Source: Naegleria gruberi | Lineage: Eukaryota | Direction: 5' to 3' (one strand) | NCBI GenBank assembly: GCA_000004985.1 | Contig: GG738863.1 | DNA length: 64,000 bases | Shown here: piece after piece, positions 13,377 through 34,216 of the stretch | Numbering within the stretch: position 1 is the stretch's first letter | How the letters are laid out: the number at the start of each line of letters is the position of its first letter | The notes under the pieces: model-generated | What the model saw: only the letters and a program-made list of their open reading frames with translations | The model's database searches: none | Told to the model about the DNA's origin: nothing | Position numbers and translations under genes: made by a program

Positions 13377-14495
13377 TTATTGAACAAAGGCAACTTGTTT
13401 GAGAGTGACTCTTTGACCAACAGAAATCTTTCTTCCTGAACTCTTCTTATTATGACACAAATTCATACCAAACACTGTTCCATCAATAATTTCACAGAAA
13501 CGATGTTTGTTCAATGAATCAATAATGAAACTCTTCTTGACACCTGAATCAACATCAACAGATGGCATGGTACATCTTGAACATCTCTTAACACCATAGA
13601 ATGTAACTCCATTAATTTCAATTTCTCTATACTTTTCTTCATCGTATGGTGAAATAGATGGTGATGAGATTACAATATTTCCACGGAAATTCCAATTACT
13701 AATATATGAATAAGCTCCAAATAAATCATAGAGGAAGGTTTTGAAATATCTTGTGAAAAGATTTGATTGATCTTGAATGACCTTCTTGTTAAAATCGCTG
13801 ACTGAATTTTCAGAGGTTAATAAGAATGGATAACCATCTGCAAATTGAGCAACATGTGTAAATTCCTTCTTTTCATCAATGAATGGTTGGAGAACTTCTG
13901 GTTCAGCAGGTCTGTGATGAGTTTGAATTTCTACAGATTTATCACTTCTTAAATCAGTAAACTTATCAATAACTTGAACCAAACGAACTGAAACTTTCAA
14001 ATTCTTTGACAACCACTTGGCAATTTCATCTCCACAATCAAAAGCATTGACAGGATATTTCCAAATAGTGACATTTTTCACTCTATCCTTATTTTCATCA
14101 TTAATCTGAATATTTTCAATATATTTCACTGAGAAATCATCAGATCCAGGGAAGCTAACCTTCAATTCTCCCTTTTTCAAATCAATACTTGTTCCAATCA
14201 AAACCATCGAAGGAGTTTCTCTCTGAGTAACAAAATTATTATTATCCTCCTTGATAACCATCCAGGCACGATCATACAAGAATCCATATTCACCAATCTC
14301 CCACTCCTTGACTTCAAATCCTCTACATGATTTAATTGGGAAAATTCTAATATTCTTTATAGTGATGGGAGCATACAATTTTTGATAGAGTTTGATCAAA
14401 CCACCCACAGCTAAAGCACCTAATCCTGCTCCGATCAGTGTTGTTGAATGTTCCTTGTTGGTGAGTGATGAAATGATTTTTTGAATGCTTTCCAT
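13377..14495 (-). CDS. MOSC-domain protein (amidoxime-reducing-component-like: MOSC_N beta-barrel plus MOSC domain), 372 aa
   Basis: True ATG at 14495. N-terminal TM/signal-anchor. IRIFPIKSCRGFEVKEWEIGEYGFLYDRAWMV resembles the MOSC_N barrel. C-terminal FRGNIVISS...GVKRCSRCTMPSVD carries the conserved MOSC cysteine. Confidence 0.7.
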   Translation of the reverse strand: MESIQKIISSLTNKEHSTTLIGAGLGALAVGGLIKLYQKLYAPITIKNIRIFPIKSCRGFEVKEWEIGEYGFLYDRAWMVIKEDNNNFVTQRETPSMVLIGTSIDLKKGELKVSFPGSDDFSVKYIENIQINDENKDRVKNVTIWKYPVNAFDCGDEIAKWLSKNLKVSVRLVQVIDKFTDLRSDKSVEIQTHHRPAEPEVLQPFIDEKKEFTHVAQFADGYPFLLTSENSVSDFNKKVIQDQSNLFTRYFKTFLYDLFGAYSYISNWNFRGNIVISSPSISPYDEEKYREIEINGVTFYGVKRCSRCTMPSVDVDSGVKKSFIIDSLNKHRFCEIIDGTVFGMNLCHNKKSSGRKISVGQRVTLKQVAFVQ

Positions 14496-14869
14496 TGTTT
14501 TTTGTTTTTTTTCAAATTGTTTTTAAATATTAAAATTAATTTCGAATTTGAAAGATACGGAAGATAACGTTTTGCAGATAATGCAGTAATGAGGTTACTA
14601 CTACATGGAATGATGAGTGCTAATGGGACAATTTTCATGCCTGTCGGAGTCGATGAGGAGAATCTTTGATTTACAAATTTGACTGATTATTACGGTTCTA
14701 ACCAATCGATTGAGAGTTTCATCATTAAGGTGTTGAATTTTCGAATTGATTGACCATATTGTCCGTTCAACAAGAAATAACTACCCTCTCGTCGGTGCTT
14801 TGCCATTTGATTAATTCCGCCCTTATTTTACATTTTCTATTTTTTAATAAAATAAATAGAAACAAAAAA

Positions 14870-15406
14870 ATGTCTGAAAATCAATCGGAAACCATTCACA
14901 CACCTCAAACAAGCATTTTGAAAACTGGTTCATGCAATTGTGGTAAATTAATGTTCGAAGTTTCCGAAAAACCACTTTTCACTGTTCTATGTCATTGTAG
15001 AATGTGTAGAAAAGGCACTGGAGCACCTGTTAGTTTAGTCGTTGCTGTACCACCGAATGGATTCAAATGGAAAACAAAAACTGGATTCACAACTGATCAA
15101 TTATTGAAAATAGTTCCATTCTCTGAAAAATTTAATGGAATGTATTGTGCAGAATGTAATGGATTTGTGGCACAACATTTGACAGGTGGACCAATCGTGT
15201 CAACTATGGGTTGTTGTTATGATGAAATGAAGAATGCATTCTGTCCTGGTGAGGAAGTTGTTAAGAAGGATGCATTCTTTCAACCAATATGTCATGTCAA
15301 TTATGAAAATCGAGTTATAGACATTCCAGATAAATTACCAAAATTTATGGACTTTTCTGCTCCGTATGGATCTGGAAGAATGTTTACTGAGGAAGAAGAG
15401 AAATGA
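14870..15406 (+). CDS. GFA-family (glutathione-dependent formaldehyde-activating enzyme / CENP-V-like, Mss4-like fold) protein, 178 aa
   Basis: Real ATG at 14870 (aacaaaaaaATGtct); the track start at 14750 is TTG. Cys pattern GSCNCGK...CHCRMCRKGTG...CAECNG typical of PF04828. Confidence 0.6.
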   Translation: MSENQSETIHTPQTSILKTGSCNCGKLMFEVSEKPLFTVLCHCRMCRKGTGAPVSLVVAVPPNGFKWKTKTGFTTDQLLKIVPFSEKFNGMYCAECNGFVAQHLTGGPIVSTMGCCYDEMKNAFCPGEEVVKKDAFFQPICHVNYENRVIDIPDKLPKFMDFSAPYGSGRMFTEEEEK

Positions 15407-15933
15407 TTTCTCAATATATTCAAGAAATGATATCAAAGATTTGAAGGAAAGGCATGTTCACATCTTAAAGTTTCTGTACGATAAATTTTTCACTATTAAA
15501 TATTTTGTAAAGTTCAATAAAAATTTGCCTAGAGTTTCTAATTTTTTCTATTATTTACATCATTAAGGAAAGAAGATTAACAATTTGAGAAACGGTTAAC
15601 AATAGATATCACGAGTGTTGTAGTTGAAACTTACAAAACATTTCAATTTTTATTTAGATAGAGATTGACATTCCCTTAAAGTGCTTTATATATTTAAAGT
15701 CAATGGTAAGCTATAATGAAATTTTGAAAGAGAAAGACCACTTCTTTGTCCATCATCATAATTAAAAAGCCGACAACCCATGTATTATTACATGTATTGA
15801 CAGCTGGCACTTTAACCTTCACTTCCCATCAAGTCAATCGAAACCAATGAACATCAATTTGATGTAATCAATTCATTATTCTCAATACCTAACCAAATCA
15901 AAAAACATAACAAAAAAATCAAGTCAACCAGAA

Positions 15934-18275
15934 ATGCCCAAAATTTCTCCCTCCAACGAAAAGCAAGATTTACTAAACAATCAAACCACCAACGATTCCT
16001 CAGACATTGTCCTTCCTAAAAAGAAGGTTTTCTTTGGTGGTTGCTTTTCCATGAGAATTGTAATAATCCTCCTCATTGTCTCCTTACTTTTTCTTTGTTC
16101 TTTATTTATTTGGTTGGCTTCGTTTATTGGATCGAGAACAGCTGTTAATGAGTTGACCACAAATTTGATCAATCAAGTTGGTAGAAAGATATTGGTCTTT
16201 TTGGAGAGCCAGATTGCACCTAGTTCAGGATTGGCAAAGAGCATTGCGTCAGATTTCAAGTTGGGAATTATTGATAGACAGCCACCACTTTCGTATTTGT
16301 TTGAGAAGAATAATATTTATAGACCATCGAGTGTTGGAGTGTTTTATCCTACTGAGATGTATGGTTACTTTAATTTGACATTCTTTACAAAAGGTTATCC
16401 AGAAGAAACTTTTACTGTTTATATCAAACATAGAGATTCGGTTGGTATCGAACAATGGAATGCGAGTGTTTCGACAGGTAGTTTACTGGATATTGTAGTT
16501 AATCAGACTACTCCTATAACTTGAAGATTTATGAAAGAGGGTATGTGTTAGTATCTGAACCTAATGACTTAGTTATTGGTGGTTCAATCAACACCACAGC
16601 CTTAGATAAGGTATCTCGAGTTCCCTTATTTAATTTGACAGATAAGGATTCAGGTATTTTGATGAGTGACATTCGATACAAATACGGAGGCGTTTCAAAA
16701 TCTCCAAGCACCTTTGAAATACAAAGTCTTGGAATTGATTACTATGTATCAAGAATGGAATTCAAATTAGAAAACATTGTTTGGAATGTTTTCCTTGTTG
16801 TCTACGCGGATGATATTTCCAGAACTGTGAATATTAACACTGCTATATCAGTAGGTGTTGCTGTATTTGTGATTATAGTTGGTTTATTGACAAGTGTCCT
16901 GATTGGATATATGATTACTGAGCCATTGAAATATTTAGAGAAACAATTTATGAAAATCAAAAAATTTGATTTAACAAGTGTTCATTTTACTTCGAGTAGA
17001 TTCAAGGAAATTGATGTCATGTACGAAGATTTGCATGAAATGGTAGTTTGGCTCAATGAATTCAAAAGCTTTTTACCAGAATCCATTTTTAACCAATTAA
17101 GGAATATGGAGAACTCATCTGAAAGCGGAGAAGAAACTCCAAAACAAAAGAATATGGAAAGCCAAGCCAGTGAATCAATCAAGAAACAAATCTCAACCAG
17201 AGAATCCAAAGATGGCATCGAAACATCAAGTAGACTTTCCTCCTCACACGACGGAAGTTTCCGAAACAATGAAGATCGAACCTCACTCTTCAAATTAGGA
17301 CTCTCAGAAAAGGAAGCAAGTATTGTCCTTGTAAAGATCTCTGAAATGTGTAAGAGCCTCTCCACAATTGAAATAGCTCAGTTATTTTCAAAGATTGCCT
17401 CTGGATTGAGCGCACTTGCAAAGACCATGCAAGCCGACTTGCAAATTCTTAGCATTGATCAATATCAGATATCATTCGTGACAGGAAAGAAGAAATCTAA
17501 CATTCAGGCTTTGGAAGCAGCTTTGAAAATATCCAAATCATTATCGAGCTTTTTATCAGATTATGAAAAATTGTCAATTTGTATTGGAATTACAACAGGA
17601 AAGGCCAATGTTGGAAATTTGGGAACCAATTCTTTGAGATTCTATTCGATTGTTGGTTCTCTACTTTCAAATGCTGAGAAATTATGTACATTGAGTAGAC
17701 ATTACAATATTCAAATTCTTGCAGATTCAAAATCTTTGGAATATGGCGCCAAAACTTTGTTTGTCACTCGTCCAATGGAAAGAATTGAGATAGAGAACGA
17801 AATTTTCCTTCCAAATATTTCAACAGTTTATCAGGTAATTAAGGAGAATTCATTCTCCAAAGATGAGTGGATGTAAGTTTCCTATTTTAAAACTGAAATA
17901 TTTTTCTTATTCGAAAGGTATGAATTGGAGCAACAAAAGGAAAATGTCAAGTACAAGAACTTTGAAAATGCATTCTCAGTATTTGAACAATTAGATTCGA
18001 ATAGTAATTCAGCATCCCTAGTAGAAAAAGTCAACCAATCCAAGAGTTTACTTTACGAACATTTAGAAAAATGTCCAGGAGATTCTCAAATCACCAACAA
18101 TGTTCTCAATTCATTAGATATGCTCTTTACAAAAGCTTATAATGGAAATATTGATTTAAGAAACGGTCTATTGAATTACAGAACTAGAATGGACCAGTCA
18201 ATGAGTAAGGTTACACAGGATAGCTCCTTCAATATTGTGGAAATATGCAACTCACAACATGTTAATAGTTGTTAG
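15934..18275 (+). CDS. Receptor-type adenylyl/guanylyl-cyclase-like protein: N-terminal signal-anchor TM, about 250-aa extracellular domain, second TM, Ser-rich linker, C-terminal class III cyclase-homology domain; probable exons 15934..16494, 16527..17872, 17918..18275
   Basis: Track ORFs 15934..16524 and 16521..17876 are in different frames. Removing a 32-nt GTAGTT..GAAG segment (16495..16526) joins them; otherwise it is a frameshift. GTAAGT donor at 17873 overlaps the stop and an acceptor at 17916-17917 joins the 17925..18275 ORF in frame. The cyclase-homology segment ICIGITTGKANVGNLGTNSLRFYSIVGSLLSNAEKLCTLSRHYNIQILADSK aligns to V(R)IGIHTGPVVAGVIG...YDVWGDTVNTASRME. Confidence 0.55.
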
Positions 18276-18467: not shown

Positions 18468-19916
18468 ATGTCTTCAAATGAAAGTGTGTTCCTACCAGGA
18501 GATATTTGCTTTCATATTTTACAATTTCTACCATGGAAACAAATCATTGCCTGTTCTCTCCTATCAAAACAATGGCGATCCGAAGTAATGAAAAGTAAAT
18601 TATTTGGTACTGTAAGCGTAAAAGGTTCATTGTTGGTTAATTTATTCCGATCACTATCATTCAAGGTGCAGAATATTCAATCTCTGTGTTTATTATTGGA
18701 AAACCAAGAACAATTGATGGAATTTTGTGAGAATTTATCAGAGATGAAAAGTTTGAAAGCATTGAGTTTGGGCAGTGCTGTCTTGGAGTTGCCGTATATT
18801 GGTGATGGATTGATTCAATTGTTTAAATGTAAAGAATTGGAGCAGTTGAGTACTTTGAGTTTGAATTTTTTTTTAAAAGGTGAAAAAGTAGGATGTGGTT
18901 ATGGTGCTGCATTAGAAATTGCCACTTGTCCTTATATTGGAAATCTAGAGAAATTGATAATTTGGGCAAATATTACAAAGGATGGAGTTGCCAAGGTGGC
19001 CAGTAATCCACTTTTGTCAAAGTTGAAGGTATTTTCATTTTTCATTGTTGTACAAGAAGAAGAATTGAAAATAATTTATGAAAATATGAAACATTTACAA
19101 TATATTTCAGTGAGCAATCCAAATCCCAAATGTTTCAAGATTATTACACAAATGAAAGAAATGAAGGAAATAAGAATAAGTAGTGGGAAGATAAATCTGC
19201 AAGATATTGACACGGAGAGCATGTCCAAGCTGGAACAAATTAACTTTACCCATACTTCTTTGAAATCTATCAAATTGCTTGGAACAAGCTCACATTTGAA
19301 AAACTTGTCCTACATATCTCTAAACCAGGGAATTGACAGAATTAATTTAACTATTGAAGATTTGGATGAGATGTTTTCAGGACATCTTGCACATACTTTG
19401 AGGTATTTGAGTTTAGCCCTTAACTTTCCAAGGAACGGTCTTCTCTATATCGCAAAATATTTGAAAAATTTAACTTATTTATCTATAGACTCCTTAGAAA
19501 TATTGAATGACAAGAGCATAATAGAATTCACCGAAAATTTGGAAAGAGAATCCCTTCTCACTTACTTACAAATATCATCAAACAATATTACGGAATTGTC
19601 TATTGAATATCTTAGTAATTGCTCTTATTTTAACAGAATTGAAAGCCTTTCGTTAAAAAGAAGTAAGGTATTCTCATTCAATTCATTAGATATGGTTGCA
19701 TCTTCACAATTTTCAAATACTATTAGATCATTAGAATATAAACTAGATTTTGATGATGTGAAAATTGAAAATCACATCAATAATTTGAAAAAGAATGGTC
19801 AATTGGTAAATCTGATTAAATTTCCAAAGAGTTTTAGAATTCCAAGGAAGGGAAGTAGTTTGAAACGATTGGATAGAGATCAACAAACCTCACTAGTGAA
19901 AAAGAAGAAACAATAA
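18468..19916 (+). CDS. F-box / leucine-rich-repeat protein (482 aa)
   Basis: True ATG at 18468 (aaaaaATGtct). N-terminal F-box LPGDICFHILQFLPWKQIIACSLLSKQWR, followed by repetitive L-x-x-L-x-L LRR-like units. Confidence 0.65.
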   Translation: MSSNESVFLPGDICFHILQFLPWKQIIACSLLSKQWRSEVMKSKLFGTVSVKGSLLVNLFRSLSFKVQNIQSLCLLLENQEQLMEFCENLSEMKSLKALSLGSAVLELPYIGDGLIQLFKCKELEQLSTLSLNFFLKGEKVGCGYGAALEIATCPYIGNLEKLIIWANITKDGVAKVASNPLLSKLKVFSFFIVVQEEELKIIYENMKHLQYISVSNPNPKCFKIITQMKEMKEIRISSGKINLQDIDTESMSKLEQINFTHTSLKSIKLLGTSSHLKNLSYISLNQGIDRINLTIEDLDEMFSGHLAHTLRYLSLALNFPRNGLLYIAKYLKNLTYLSIDSLEILNDKSIIEFTENLERESLLTYLQISSNNITELSIEYLSNCSYFNRIESLSLKRSKVFSFNSLDMVASSQFSNTIRSLEYKLDFDDVKIENHINNLKKNGQLVNLIKFPKSFRIPRKGSSLKRLDRDQQTSLVKKKKQ

Positions 19917-32533: not shown

Positions 32534-34216
32534 ATGGCACAACATCTTCCTCCAGAATTGCTGCAGCTCATCATTTCATTCATTCCACCATCAGAATATT
32601 TAAAAAATAATGTCATCACTGTTTGTTCCGATTGGTTTGAATTGGGAGAGTATGAAATGTTTTGGTTGGCTACTCTAAAATCACTACTTCAGGAGGAGAT
32701 CTTCTTTACAGAGAATGAAGAATGTGAATTTGTGGGAGTGGTTCATTATACATTCCTCGATTCATTGTTTAATTTTAAAATGGAAAGAGAGTCCTATGCT
32801 CAACAATTAAAACGATTGGAGCAAATTTTAATTTTTGATCGTAAACCTTTTCAACTTAGGAGAGAAACTAATAGTGATATTTTTGGAAAAACTTATTGGA
32901 AAAGGTCGCGCCAATTTGTTACAGAGAGAAGGAGGAGACGTATTATGCTGGAGGTTTTAAGAAGAGTTATTCAAATGGGATTTTCAGCCAATATTTCAGA
33001 ATGGATTGATATTGTAAAATTTATCAAAAGTCATAAGGATTTAAAATCAATAGCTAGGTACAATTACGCACATGTAAATTTGGCAAATTTATTCTTATTT
33101 CATTATGCATATGATTATTTCAAAGTTGTAGATCAAAAATGGAGAGATTTTGCATATTATATGCTAGATTTCTTTTTCAATGAATGTGAAACACCAATAT
33201 TAGACTGTATAGAGCGAATTTTTAAAATGAAACTTATAAGAGTTTTTAATGATAAATCTCTAGGGCTCTTTGAAAAATTCAAAAAGGAGCTCGTAGCATG
33301 TGGGAAGAAAGGTGTTCCAGATTATTTTATTGTAACACTTTTAAATTCTGCAGACATGACAAAGGCAGAAGACATTGAAATTGTAACCAAATTTGTAACT
33401 TTAATAAGAGATAGAAAGCAATCAAAATTTACTGAAACCATAGCAGCTCGTGACGTCAATTCTCTATTCTTATATGTACGAGGAAATTGGGAATGTATTG
33501 AATTTTACTTGAAAGTATTGGAAGTCCAAAAGTACCAACAATTTTCTCCTAAAATATTTATTGATAATATTATTAGAAATAGTGACCCAGAGTCATGTAA
33601 TATTATTGGGATTTTAAGGAGAATTCATAACGAATATGGATTGGAAATGAATTACCTTTCAAAGTTTTTGGTTCAAGAGAAAACAAATGACCTACTCTTA
33701 TTTTTTGTTGATGAGTGTGGAGCTAATGTTAATCAACTAATAGGTGAGAGTGATAACAGTTTTTTAATTAGTGAGTGCATCCATGCCACAGGGTTGAGAC
33801 GATCTCAAACAGAACTGATTTTAACATTAATGGAGAGGGGAGCAACCATACCAAATCATGAATTTTTTTCAACAATATTTAACAACTATTTCGATAGAGA
33901 GGAGCTTTATTTACCTACATTGAAAAAGCTTGTTGAGAAATATGGTCCACGATTTGACTCTCTTGACTTTTTCTCTTATCATGTAAAATATATAGATGAT
34001 GGCTTTCTCTTTTCTCCAAAAAGTTTAGTTTCAGTATTTCAATATTTCGTCGAATATTTAGGCAGCAAACAATTAGCAACCAGAGATCTCAAGGAGAATA
34101 TTCAAGACTATTGCAGTCGAATATCTAATAATTGGTTTGACATTAATCTAGAGGAAGTTGAAGAATTGAAGAAAAAAGTTAAGGAATTATTTGGATTTAC
34201 AATAACTACTAAGTGA
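32534..34216 (+). CDS. Hypothetical F-box-like protein (560 aa)
   Basis: True ATG at 32534. N-terminal LPPELLQLIISFIPPSEYLKNNVITVCSDWFEL resembles an F-box. The rest is helical with no other recognised domain. Confidence 0.45.
   Translation: MAQHLPPELLQLIISFIPPSEYLKNNVITVCSDWFELGEYEMFWLATLKSLLQEEIFFTENEECEFVGVVHYTFLDSLFNFKMERESYAQQLKRLEQILIFDRKPFQLRRETNSDIFGKTYWKRSRQFVTERRRRRIMLEVLRRVIQMGFSANISEWIDIVKFIKSHKDLKSIARYNYAHVNLANLFLFHYAYDYFKVVDQKWRDFAYYMLDFFFNECETPILDCIERIFKMKLIRVFNDKSLGLFEKFKKELVACGKKGVPDYFIVTLLNSADMTKAEDIEIVTKFVTLIRDRKQSKFTETIAARDVNSLFLYVRGNWECIEFYLKVLEVQKYQQFSPKIFIDNIIRNSDPESCNIIGILRRIHNEYGLEMNYLSKFLVQEKTNDLLLFFVDECGANVNQLIGESDNSFLISECIHATGLRRSQTELILTLMERGATIPNHEFFSTIFNNYFDREELYLPTLKKLVEKYGPRFDSLDFFSYHVKYIDDGFLFSPKSLVSVFQYFVEYLGSKQLATRDLKENIQDYCSRISNNWFDINLEEVEELKKKVKELFGFTITTK

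What the first reader, a model, noticed from the sequence alone, without database searches (positions are those of the whole stretch)
15934..18275. Receptor-topology nucleotide cyclase homolog with a degenerate catalytic domain and two atypical junctions
Topology (short cytosolic N-terminus, TM, about 250-aa ecto-domain, TM, linker, cyclase-homology domain) resembles single-TM receptor cyclases such as ACG. In the cyclase-homology domain, the positions of the two metal-binding Asp (F-x-D-I-x-G-F-T and I-G-D-x-Y) read VLVKISEMCKS and SFVTGKKKS, and the transition-state Asn/Arg block VNxASRME reads LSNAEKLC. The domain is therefore probably non-catalytic (a pseudo-cyclase or regulatory cyclase-homology domain). 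The gene is in frame only if a 32-nt GTAGTT..GAAG segment (16495..16526) is removed, and it probably continues past its apparent stop through a GTAAGT intron (17873..17917) into the 17918..18275 ORF.
Basis: partly seen in the sequence, partly recalled or inferred. Interest (0 to 1): 0.55.

Follow-up and report, generated by a model that had tools for sequence, protein, structure and literature searches.

The report
Broken copy of a pseudo-cyclase receptor gene
This Naegleria gruberi locus is a copy of a receptor gene whose cyclase-like domain lost its catalytic residues long ago in the whole gene family, and this copy has also lost the core of its outside sensor through a frame-breaking deletion, so the supposed 32-base intron is a deletion scar.

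Summary
The window is Naegleria gruberi. Bases 15934-18275 hold a real gene-like unit, and its 3' two-thirds is annotated as XP_002678111.1, 'adenylate cyclase 1-like'.

- **Cyclase-like domain.** It has the class III cyclase fold (Foldseek to CyaB, E 4.6e-11). It lacks the first metal Asp (Lys here), the transition-state Asn (Ser) and Arg (Lys), and the base-specifying Lys.
- **Family-wide loss.** The same losses occur in all close relatives and in nearly all of about 150 more distant cluster representatives, from Naegleria, Willaertia and two prokinetoplastids. The degeneracy is old, not local decay.
- **Ectodomain.** In intact relatives it is a dCache sensor that Pfam does not detect at threshold.
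- **The 32-nt 'intron' (16495-16526).** I reject it. It encodes the conserved V-V-N-Q-T-T-P in frame with the upstream exon, and the 72-77 residues that follow in intact relatives are missing. The scar is a 3n+1 deletion that removed half of the distal sensor module.
- **The 45-nt intron (17873-17917).** It is real. It lies 7 nt downstream of the position shared by four relatives and has an AAG acceptor.
- **Timing.** The upstream ORF shows the same constraint as the rest of the gene, so the lesion is recent, allele-specific or an assembly fault.

Best reading: a recently disabled or truncated member of an unrecognised family of dCache pseudo-cyclase receptors.

The parts
15934..16524 (+). Upstream ORF (196 codons plus TGA at 16522..16524): cytosolic N-terminus, TM1 and the first half of the dCache ectodomain. 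It is not part of the public gene model.
   Evidence: tblastn places P0002 residues 7-200 on 15919..16518 at 57% identity, E 3e-69. The N-terminus MPKISP..KQDLL matches P0004. pN 0.29 against pS 0.78 versus the N. lovaniensis relative.
16051..16131 (+). TM1 (MRIVIILLIVSLLFLCSLFIWLASFIG)
   Evidence: Kyte-Doolittle 19-residue maximum of 3.12. Coordinates. The FIWLASFIGS motif is conserved in the family.
16495..16526 (+). Bases 16495..16515 encode the conserved V-V-N-Q-T-T-P in the upstream frame. The rest is the deletion junction, including the TGA.
   Evidence: Alignment A1. P0006 reads VVNQTTPF and P0003 reads VMNQTTPF at the same columns. Donor GTAGTT and acceptor AAG differ from the family consensus.
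16516..16538 (+). Deletion scar and frame switch from frame 1 to frame 0. About 72-77 codons (3n+1 nt) present in intact relatives are missing here.
   Evidence: A1 columns 693-775 are empty only in the window copy; P0007 and P0015 have smaller partial gaps, probably from gene-model errors. P0002 residues 201-272 have no counterpart anywhere in the 64 kb, all tblastn E > 1. There is no slippery heptamer in 16480..16530.
16539..16841 (+). Membrane-proximal dCache module (GYVLVSEPNDLVIGGSINTTA ... VVYADDIS). The start codon of the public model XP_002678111.1 lies inside it at 16755.
   Evidence: 70% identity to P0002 over 94 aa. It corresponds to strands E213-300 of the P0002 ectodomain model. 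The public model begins at MEFKLEN.
16842..16916 (+). TM2
   Evidence: Kyte-Doolittle maximum of 2.74. Coordinates.
16917..17105 (+). Juxtamembrane two-helix segment (HAMP-like, inferred) followed by the F-L-P-E-x-x-F-x-Q-L motif, which resembles the cyclase transducer element. This is the best conserved part of the family.
   Evidence: 79% identity to P0002 and P0003. Invariant W, L, E, K, F, P, E, F, Q, L. No Pfam or PDB sequence match, so the HAMP assignment is an inference.
17106..17285 (+). Ser/Glu/Lys-rich, poorly conserved linker, predicted disordered
   Evidence: 21-25% identity to relatives. pLDDT below 50 for residues 118-180 of the P0001 model.
17286..17849 (+). Degenerate class III cyclase-homology domain. 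Key codons: Lys at metal-Asp-1 (17334..17336), Asp at metal-Asp-2 (17457..17459), invariant Arg (17637..17639), Ser at the Asn position (17667..17669), Lys at the Arg position (17679..17681).
17873..17917 (+). Real 45-nt spliceosomal intron (GTAAGT..AAG, phase 2). It lies 7 nt downstream of the position shared by four relatives.
   Evidence: The public protein reads across it. Relatives split GAT G|GTAAGT...YAG|AA TGG ATG.
17918..18275 (+). Last exon: a conserved helical C-terminal tail (YELEQQK...), with its stop at 18273..18275
   Evidence: Three helices at residues 372-447 of the model, pLDDT about 80-90. The end of the protein aligns with the ends of relatives.

Best explanation
The locus is one copy of a gene family found so far in Naegleria, Willaertia and two prokinetoplastids.

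**What intact members look like (shown).** They have a short cytosolic N-terminus, TM1, an extracellular dCache sensor of about 305 aa and TM2. After TM2 come a highly conserved two-helix juxtamembrane segment ending in a transducer-like FLPExxFxQL motif and a disordered Ser-rich linker. The C-terminal part is a class III cyclase-fold domain followed by a conserved three-helix tail. The nearest relatives with catalytic residues intact are bacterial-type dCache adenylate cyclases.

**Catalytic state (shown).** Across the family the cyclase fold has lost the first metal Asp, the transition-state Asn and Arg, and the base-specifying Lys. It keeps the fold glycines, one Arg at the position of the conserved Arg preceding beta4, and the second Asp or Glu.

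**Inference from this.** No homodimer or within-family heterodimer can build a canonical two-metal active site. The domain most likely acts as a dimerising, possibly nucleotide-binding, output or scaffold module and does not make cAMP or cGMP.

**This copy (shown).** A 3n+1 deletion of roughly 220-280 bp removed the second half of the membrane-distal sensor module: the helix carrying the family's conserved Y-W pair, three strands and the connecting helix. The deletion shifted the frame, so translation from the native ATG stops at 16522.

**Inference for this copy.** It can no longer make a ligand-sensing receptor. It is a young pseudogene or null allele. At most it yields a sensor-less, membrane-anchored remnant from an internal Met, which is how the public annotation models it. 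The 45-nt intron near the 3' end is genuine.
For: - **Organism and annotation.** The best hit is 100% identical to N. gruberi XP_002678111.1 and covers only 65% of the query.
- **Deletion.** Alignment of 19 family proteins shows about 80 columns missing in the window copy, flanked by conserved VVNQTTP and GYVLVSEPNDLVIGGSINTTA. tblastn leaves P0002 residues 201-272 unmatched, and nothing in the 64 kb encodes them. The frames differ by one base.
- **Sensor identity.** The AF2 model of the P0002 ectodomain has pLDDT 89.9. It matches dCache ligand-binding domains (6d8v, 3li9, CtaA, PctC, Mlp24, Tlp3) at E about 1e-9 and TM 0.5-0.7. The missing part corresponds to model residues of about 129-205.
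- **Cyclase fold.**
- **Key sites in 15 close family domains.** Metal Asp 1 is never D (K3 R3 H3 W2 Q E T Y). Metal Asp 2 is D11 E4. The Asn position is E5 S4 Q3 T N A. The Arg position is K9 R2 T2 N Q. The Arg, GNLG motif and fold Gly residues are invariant.
- **Wider family.** In 152 proteins from an exhaustive profile search, full or near-full canonical catalytic sets appear in only a few metagenomic or bacterial-type sequences (P0079, P0142, P0145, P0159); several others keep only the Asn and Arg. Four of these (P0079, P0142, P0148, P0159) pass Pfam Guanylate_cyc at 74-95 bits.
- **Not an intron.** The donor is GTAGTT and the acceptor AAG. Eight family introns have GTAAGT (7) or GTATGT (1), YAG acceptors and lengths of 41-140 nt, and none lies at this position.
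- **Recent lesion.** ORF1 has pN 0.29 and pS 0.78, the same as the rest of the gene (0.28 and 0.79) and as intact pairs. Per-region identities are no lower than for intact pairs. There is no second disabling mutation.
Against: - No transcript or read data could be consulted. Splicing of a 32- or 62-nt segment, which would give an in-frame protein with a mutilated sensor, is not excluded. N. fowleri annotators accepted introns down to 30 bp (PMC8296547).
- Both ORFs are otherwise intact and constrained. That fits a very recent lesion, but it also fits an assembly or sequencing fault, or one null allele in a heterozygous strain.
- The public annotation treats the 3' part as a gene.
- Loss of catalysis is inferred from residues only. 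Non-canonical chemistry, or pairing with one of the many canonical Naegleria cyclases, was not tested.
- The HAMP and transducer-element assignments rest on pattern and position, not on a significant database match.
Confidence: 0.68

Rival explanations
1. One reading: a working receptor gene in which a tiny intron (32 nt, 16495..16526, or 62 nt, 16478..16539) restores the frame. The product would be a 745-754 aa receptor with a shortened ectodomain.
For: Both removals give one open frame. Both segments have GT..AG ends. Both ORFs are open and constrained. Short introns exist in this clade: 41 nt in Willaertia and 45 nt here. A 30-bp minimum was used for N. fowleri (PMC8296547).
Against: The 32-nt segment encodes VVNQTTP, conserved in relatives and in frame with the upstream exon. 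Its donor GTAGTT lacks the AGT at +4 to +6 that is shared by all nine introns looked at. Its acceptor is AAG or GAG, against YAG in 8 of 8. No relative has an intron there. Even if spliced, the protein lacks three strands and two to three helices of the distal dCache module.
Confidence: 0.1
2. The deletion is not in the organism, or not in all its alleles. It is an assembly or sequencing fault, or one null haplotype, and N. gruberi still makes the full-length receptor.
For: There is only one lesion. ORF1 shows no relaxation of constraint. The copy is as similar to its nearest relative P0002 (60%) as any N. gruberi/N. lovaniensis pair in the family.
Against: No repeat or low-complexity sequence flanks the junction that would favour a collapse. 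The missing piece is not elsewhere in the 64 kb. A loss of more than 200 bp inside unique coding sequence is not a usual assembly error. Nothing in the public protein set shows an intact version. An exact-match scan of metagenome contigs found nothing.
Confidence: 0.12
3. The public model is right in spirit. The 3' ORF is expressed on its own from Met at 16755 and gives a sensor-less, single-pass membrane protein (TM2, juxtamembrane segment, pseudo-cyclase, tail). By dimerising with full-length paralogues it would act as a constitutive or dominant-negative partner.
For: XP_002678111.1 is modelled this way. ORF2 and the tail exon are open, constrained and carry all family motifs. Class III domains work as dimers, and inactive partners are documented in chytrid NeoR/RGC heterodimers (PMC12264004).
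Against: There is no evidence for an internal promoter. On the native mRNA the start would lie behind a 196-codon ORF. The model start is a gene-predictor choice, and an earlier in-frame Met (MSDIRYKY) was passed over. The conserved upstream ORF shows that the ancestral unit was full length.
Confidence: 0.15

Closest known systems
Bacterial dCache-linked class III adenylate cyclases (for example the metagenomic proteins P0148, 'MAG: adenylate cyclase [bacterium]', and P0159)
   Same: They share the order of parts: TM, dCache ectodomain, TM, juxtamembrane helices, class III cyclase fold. The family profile aligns to them best over the ectodomain-to-linker region. Upadhyay et al. [quoted passage not shown]
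   Different: The bacterial proteins keep FxDIxGFT, KxxGD and GDxVNxASR and pass Pfam Guanylate_cyc at 74-95 bits. The Naegleria family has lost those residues. It has also gained a 45-90 aa disordered insert between the transducer-like motif and the cyclase fold, and it falls below Pfam thresholds for both domains.
C2-type (non-metal-binding) halves of pseudo-heterodimeric cyclases, such as human soluble adenylyl cyclase ADCY10 C2 (4cm2 and 4clf, the best sequence match)
   Same: They lack the first metal Asp but keep an acidic residue at the second. Overall profile similarity is E 7e-8.
   Different: C2 domains supply the Asn, Arg and base-specifying Lys to the shared active site. In this family those positions are Ser/Glu/Gln, Lys and Ile/Val, so it cannot play the C2 role either.
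Neorhodopsin (NeoR) and RGC2 of chytrid rhodopsin-guanylyl cyclases
   Same: These are receptor-type class III cyclase proteins whose catalytic domain is inactive alone and works through dimerisation, with one degenerate regulatory site (PMC12264004).
   Different: The sensor is a rhodopsin, not dCache. The heterodimer still has one complete active site. No complementary partner is known for the Naegleria family.
Dictyostelium ACG and trypanosomatid receptor adenylate cyclases
   Same: A membrane receptor topology with an extracellular sensor and one cytosolic cyclase domain.
   Different: These enzymes are catalytically active. Their ectodomains are of other kinds: CHASE in ACG and periplasmic-binding-protein-like in trypanosomatids (from memory, not tested here). 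No specific sequence relationship appeared in any search.

Membership tests
Class III nucleotidyl cyclase catalytic domain (Pfam PF00211) | The class III cyclase catalytic-domain fold | tested here: met
   The AF2 model of XP_002678111.1 has pLDDT 85-92 over residues 180-365. Foldseek to CyaB 3r5g gives E 4.6e-11, TM 0.75, rmsd 3.5 A, followed by Cya2, CyaC, Rv1625c and RhGC.
Class III nucleotidyl cyclase catalytic domain (Pfam PF00211) | Sequence score above the Pfam gathering threshold | tested here: not met
   17.9 bits against 21.9 for this protein. Only 6 of 19 relatives reach E < 0.01; the relatives scanned individually all score below 21.9. A family profile does reach solved cyclases at E 7e-8.
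Class III nucleotidyl cyclase catalytic domain (Pfam PF00211) | Two metal-binding Asp (FxDIxGFT and IGDxY) | tested here: not met
   The first is Lys here and is never Asp in 15 family domains. The second is kept: Asp here, and D11/E4 in the family.
Class III nucleotidyl cyclase catalytic domain (Pfam PF00211) | Transition-state Asn and Arg (VNxASR) | tested here: not met
   Ser and Lys here. In the family, Asn occurs in 1 of 15 and Arg in 2 of 15. The gapless alignments to CyaB, sAC C2 and a canonical bacterial cyclase agree. A conserved Asn one residue later (13 of 15) leaves a shifted register formally possible.
Class III nucleotidyl cyclase catalytic domain (Pfam PF00211) | Cyclase activity | not testable with these tools
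   This needs an enzyme assay of a recombinant domain.
dCache_1 extracellular sensor (Pfam PF02743) | Double PAS-like fold on a long stalk helix between two TM helices, in intact relatives | tested here: met
   P0002 ectodomain model, pLDDT 89.9 and pTM 0.86. All of the top 50 Foldseek PDB hits listed (of 122 at E <= 0.001) are extracellular sensor domains of chemoreceptors and sensor kinases, most of them described dCache ligand-binding domains, best E 1.5e-9. Pfam scores are below threshold, with a maximum of 27.4 against 45.
dCache_1 extracellular sensor (Pfam PF02743) | Complete distal, ligand-binding module in the window copy | tested here: not met
   About 77 residues are absent (model residues of about 129-205: H135-147, E151-153, E164-173, H175-181, E186-195, H197-204), and the frame is broken.
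HAMP linker | Significant match to HAMP profiles or structures | tested here: not met
   There is no Pfam HAMP hit in this protein, in relatives or in bacterial-type homologues. There is no PDB hit with the segment profile. Two helices are predicted, but at low confidence. I use the label 'HAMP-like' by position only.
Spliceosomal intron (claimed for 16495..16526) | Splice-site consensus of the lineage, non-coding content, and a plausible or shared position | tested here: not met
   The ends are GT..AG, but the donor is GTAGTT and the acceptor AAG, against GTAAGT or GTATGT and YAG in 8 of 8 family introns. The segment encodes the conserved VVNQTTP, and no relative has an intron there. Splicing itself cannot be tested here.
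Spliceosomal intron (claimed for 17873..17917) | Consensus ends and removal needed to give a conserved protein | tested here: met
   GTAAGT..AG, 45 nt, with an in-frame TAA. Removal gives DEWMYELEQQK, which is found in all relatives and in the public protein. Its position is shifted 7 nt and its acceptor is AAG.
Pseudogene or null allele | Frame disruption and loss of an essential part relative to intact homologues | tested here: met
   A 3n+1 deletion with a premature TGA at 16522.
Pseudogene or null allele | Relaxed constraint or further disabling mutations; lack of expression | tested here: not met
   No other stop or frameshift was found. ORF1 has pN 0.29 against pS 0.78, equal to the rest of the gene. 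Any decay is therefore very recent. Expression cannot be tested here.

The most novel reading that the evidence does not exclude
A sizeable share of the 'more than 80-100 adenylate/guanylate cyclases' counted in Naegleria genomes may not be cyclases. They would form a large Discoba family of dCache chemoreceptors, with at least about 70 clusters at 50% identity in Naegleria and Willaertia and relatives in prokinetoplastids. In this family the cyclase fold has become a pseudoenzyme output module that signals by an unknown route not involving cAMP or cGMP. The window copy would be a recent casualty of turnover in that family. Its 3' intron, 7 nt away from the ancestral position, would be a rare clean case of intron relocation.
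Probability: 0.4. Interest if true: 0.6.

Novelty: new variant of a known kind. Interest (0 to 1): 0.4.

Why it matters
**For the locus.** The public gene model (XP_002678111.1, 'adenylate cyclase 1-like') is the stump of a broken receptor gene, and its name implies an activity the protein almost certainly lacks.

**For the field.**
- Naegleria is cited for an unusually large cyclase repertoire. If a whole expanded clade is catalytically dead, counts of cAMP/cGMP-producing enzymes are inflated.
- A set of extracellular dCache sensors in a eukaryote would have gone unrecognised. The reference survey found Cache in a single Naegleria protein (PMC4822843).
- These receptors would then need a different output mechanism. 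That can be tested with recombinant domains and ligand screens.

Tried and rejected
- **Missing exon elsewhere.** tblastn of the missing segment from three relatives against the whole window gave only chance hits, all E > 1.
- **Programmed frameshift.** There is no X XXY YYZ heptamer in 16480..16530, so I rejected it.
- **Repeat-mediated collapse at the junction.** No relevant direct or inverted repeats were found.
- **Synteny with the N. lovaniensis and N. fowleri loci.** tblastx found no shared neighbours within +/-8 kb, so positional orthology could not be shown.
- **N. gruberi gene calls around the locus.** The genome is not in the encoding-contig index, so nothing was returned for P0001, ORF1 or P0006.
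- **Sequence-only identification of the ectodomain and of a HAMP domain against PDB.** Only a non-significant dCache chemoreceptor hit (6mni, E 0.95) appeared, and nothing for the linker.
- **dN/dS dating of the lesion.** Synonymous sites are saturated (pS 0.78), so only the equality of pN between the parts could be used.
- **Exact-match scan of metagenome contigs for an intact allele.** 0 hits.
- **Literature search for described 'pseudo-cyclases' in Naegleria.** Nothing specific was found.
Full report
**Source and first look.** The window has 31-39% G+C and is from Naegleria gruberi. It is 100% identical but covers only 65% of the query. The search also returned 19 relatives from N. gruberi, N. 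lovaniensis, N. fowleri, Willaertia magna and unnamed assemblies. They are far longer than chance allows at this base composition. Removing 16495..16526 and 17873..17917 gives one 754-codon frame.

**The first junction is a deletion scar, not an intron.**
- In the 19-protein alignment every other member has about 80 more columns between two conserved blocks...GS(L/I)xx(V/L)xxNQTTPF... and ...L(L/I)GxGYVLVSExNDLVIGGSINTTA.... P0007 and P0015 have smaller partial gaps in this region, which look like gene-model errors.
- The window sequence runs straight from VVNQTTPIT-stop in one frame into LKIYERGYVLVSEP in the next.
- The seven residues VVNQTTP are encoded by 16495..16515, which is inside the proposed intron. 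They are identical in the N. gruberi paralogue P0006 and nearly identical in N. fowleri P0003.
- tblastn places P0002 residues 7-200 on 15919..16518 and residues 273-818 on 16509..18197. Residues 201-272 have no home, and no part of the 64 kb encodes them.
- The frame change requires a loss of 3n+1 bases.
- Both candidate rescue introns start with GTAGTT: the 32-nt one and a 62-nt one at 16478..16539 that I found also restores the frame. They end in AAG and GAG.
- The eight introns I mapped exactly in four relatives have GTAAGT (7) or GTATGT (1) donors, YAG acceptors and lengths of 41-140 nt. None lies at this position.
- There is no slippery site for frameshifting and no repeat that would explain an assembly collapse.

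**What was lost.** The ectodomain of the nearest relative (P0002, N. lovaniensis) folds with high confidence (pLDDT 89.9, pTM 0.86). Its Foldseek hits are bacterial extracellular sensor domains, mostly described dCache ligand-binding domains, including CtaA, PctC, Mlp24, Tlp3 and the mmHK1S sensor kinases (E about 1e-9, TM 0.5-0.7). Pfam dCache_1 sees the family only below threshold, and a PDB sequence-profile search fails. The missing residues correspond to about 129-205 of that model. They include the helix with the family's conserved Y-W pair, three beta strands and the helix that leads into the proximal module. This is half of the membrane-distal module, which is the usual ligand site in dCache sensors (that last point rests on general knowledge of the family). 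Even an in-frame transcript would therefore encode a mutilated sensor.

**The cyclase-like domain.**
- By sequence alone this protein is below the Pfam threshold, at 17.9 against 21.9 bits.
- A profile of 15 family domains reaches solved class III cyclases. The best is human soluble adenylyl cyclase C2 at E 7e-8, followed by OaPAC, RhGC and CyaB.
- The AF2 model of the annotated protein matches CyaB at E 4.6e-11 and TM 0.75.
- Site by site, the first metal Asp is Lys, at the end of beta1.
- The second metal Asp is retained.
- The base-specifying Lys is Ile, the transition-state Asn is Ser and the transition-state Arg is Lys.
- Across the 15 close relatives the first Asp is never present. The Asn is present once and the Arg twice. 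The fold glycines, the GNLG motif and one Arg are invariant.
The cause is old and family-wide, not decay at this locus.

**How far the family reaches.**
- An exhaustive profile search of 1.84 billion cluster representatives found 112 proteins at E <= 1e-30. About 70 of them match over the full length.
- I aligned 152 of the retrieved proteins to the domain profile. Nearly all lack the catalytic set.
- Named members are from N. gruberi, N. lovaniensis, Willaertia magna and two free-living prokinetoplastids, Apiculatamorpha spiralis and Papus ankaliazontas.
- The few sequences with canonical or near-canonical FxDIxGFT / KxxGD / GDxVNxASR motifs are metagenomic, bacterial-type dCache adenylate cyclases. 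Four of them pass Pfam Guanylate_cyc at 74-95 bits.
- This fits descent from a bacterial-type dCache cyclase, followed by loss of catalysis and expansion.
- The literature I could search counts 81 to more than 100 cyclases in Naegleria (PMC9928731). It reports Cache in a single Naegleria protein (PMC4822843). It does not mention a degenerate clade.

**Other parts.**
- The segment after TM2 is the most conserved part of the family, at 79% identity to relatives.
- It ends in F-L-P-E-S-I-F-N-Q-L-R-N. From memory this resembles the LLxxxLPxxVAxxL transducer motif that directly precedes canonical catalytic domains, for example in Rv1625c.
- In this family a poorly conserved Ser-rich stretch of about 45-90 aa, predicted disordered, separates that motif from the cyclase fold.
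- No HAMP match was obtained, so 'HAMP-like' is an inference.
- The tail after the cyclase fold forms three confident helices.

**The second junction.** The 45-nt intron (17873..17917) is real. The public protein and all relatives read DEWMYELEQQK across it. It is unusual in two ways. Two N. lovaniensis genes, one N. fowleri gene and one Willaertia gene all split GAT G|GTAAGT...YAG|AA TGG ATG, in phase 1. The window gene splits GAT GAG TGG AT|GTAAGT...AAG|G TAT, which is 7 nt downstream and in phase 2, and it has an AAG acceptor.

**Age of the lesion.**
- The window copy groups with N. lovaniensis P0002 in a distance tree, at 60% identity.
- Region by region it is no more diverged than intact pairs.
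- The nonsynonymous difference is 0.29 in the upstream ORF and 0.28 in the rest, against saturated synonymous differences of about 0.78.
- There is no second disabling mutation.
- The upstream ORF was therefore under selection for nearly all of its history. The deletion is recent, confined to one allele, or an error in the assembly. I cannot tell these apart without reads.

**Conclusion.** The locus belongs to a lineage-specific family of dCache receptors with a catalytically degenerate cyclase fold. The public model is the 3' stump. Neighbouring genes are unrelated: MOSC, GFA, F-box and the glycine cleavage P-protein.

Noticed in passing
window 17862-17925; L001 10296-10353; L002 10450-10517; L003 2740-2879; L004 2712-2765: The intron at the DEWMYE site lies at an identical phase-1 position (GAT G|GTAAGT..YAG|AA TGG ATG) in two N. 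lovaniensis genes, one N. fowleri gene and one Willaertia gene. In the window gene it is 7 nt downstream, in phase 2 (..TGG AT|GTAAGT..AAG|G TAT), with an AAG acceptor. This is a possible case of intron relocation, or of loss followed by regain.
   Followed up: partly
family level (P0002-P0163): The window gene belongs to a family of at least about 70 clusters (50% identity) of dCache-plus-degenerate-cyclase receptors in Naegleria and Willaertia, with relatives in the prokinetoplastids Apiculatamorpha and Papus. Pfam misses both domains at threshold. A 2016 survey reported Cache in only one Naegleria protein (PMC4822843).
   Followed up: partly
P0006 (N. gruberi XP_002671149.1, 1272 aa): The closest N. 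gruberi paralogue is annotated as a fusion. A GT10 fucosyltransferase domain (PF00852, residues 359-498) is joined to a family member that lacks its N-terminus and TM1. This is probably two merged gene models.
   Followed up: no
P0005, P0007, P0015, P0020 (alignment A1): Several public models of relatives have internal gaps. About 30 aa are missing from the cyclase fold of P0005, part of dCache from P0007 and P0015, and TM2 and the linker from P0020. These look like mis-called introns, not real deletions, so single-gene gaps in this family need DNA-level checking.
   Followed up: no
window 17106-17285 and the equivalent region in relatives: A Ser-rich, poorly conserved insert of 45-90 aa, predicted disordered, separates the conserved FLPExxFxQL motif from the cyclase fold. 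In canonical cyclases that motif directly abuts the catalytic domain (from memory).
   Followed up: no
window 18468-19916 (+) and 32534-34216 (+): Two ORFs of 482 and 560 aa each start with an F-box-like motif (PF12937/PF00646, E 2e-5 and 3e-4) and have no other recognised domain. They may be paralogues.
   Followed up: no
window 13377-14495 (-), 14750-15406 (+), 27295-30336 (-): Neighbouring genes are ordinary and unrelated to signalling: a MOSC-domain protein, a GFA-family protein and the glycine cleavage P-protein. No neighbour is shared with the N. lovaniensis or N. fowleri loci of the relatives.
   Followed up: partly
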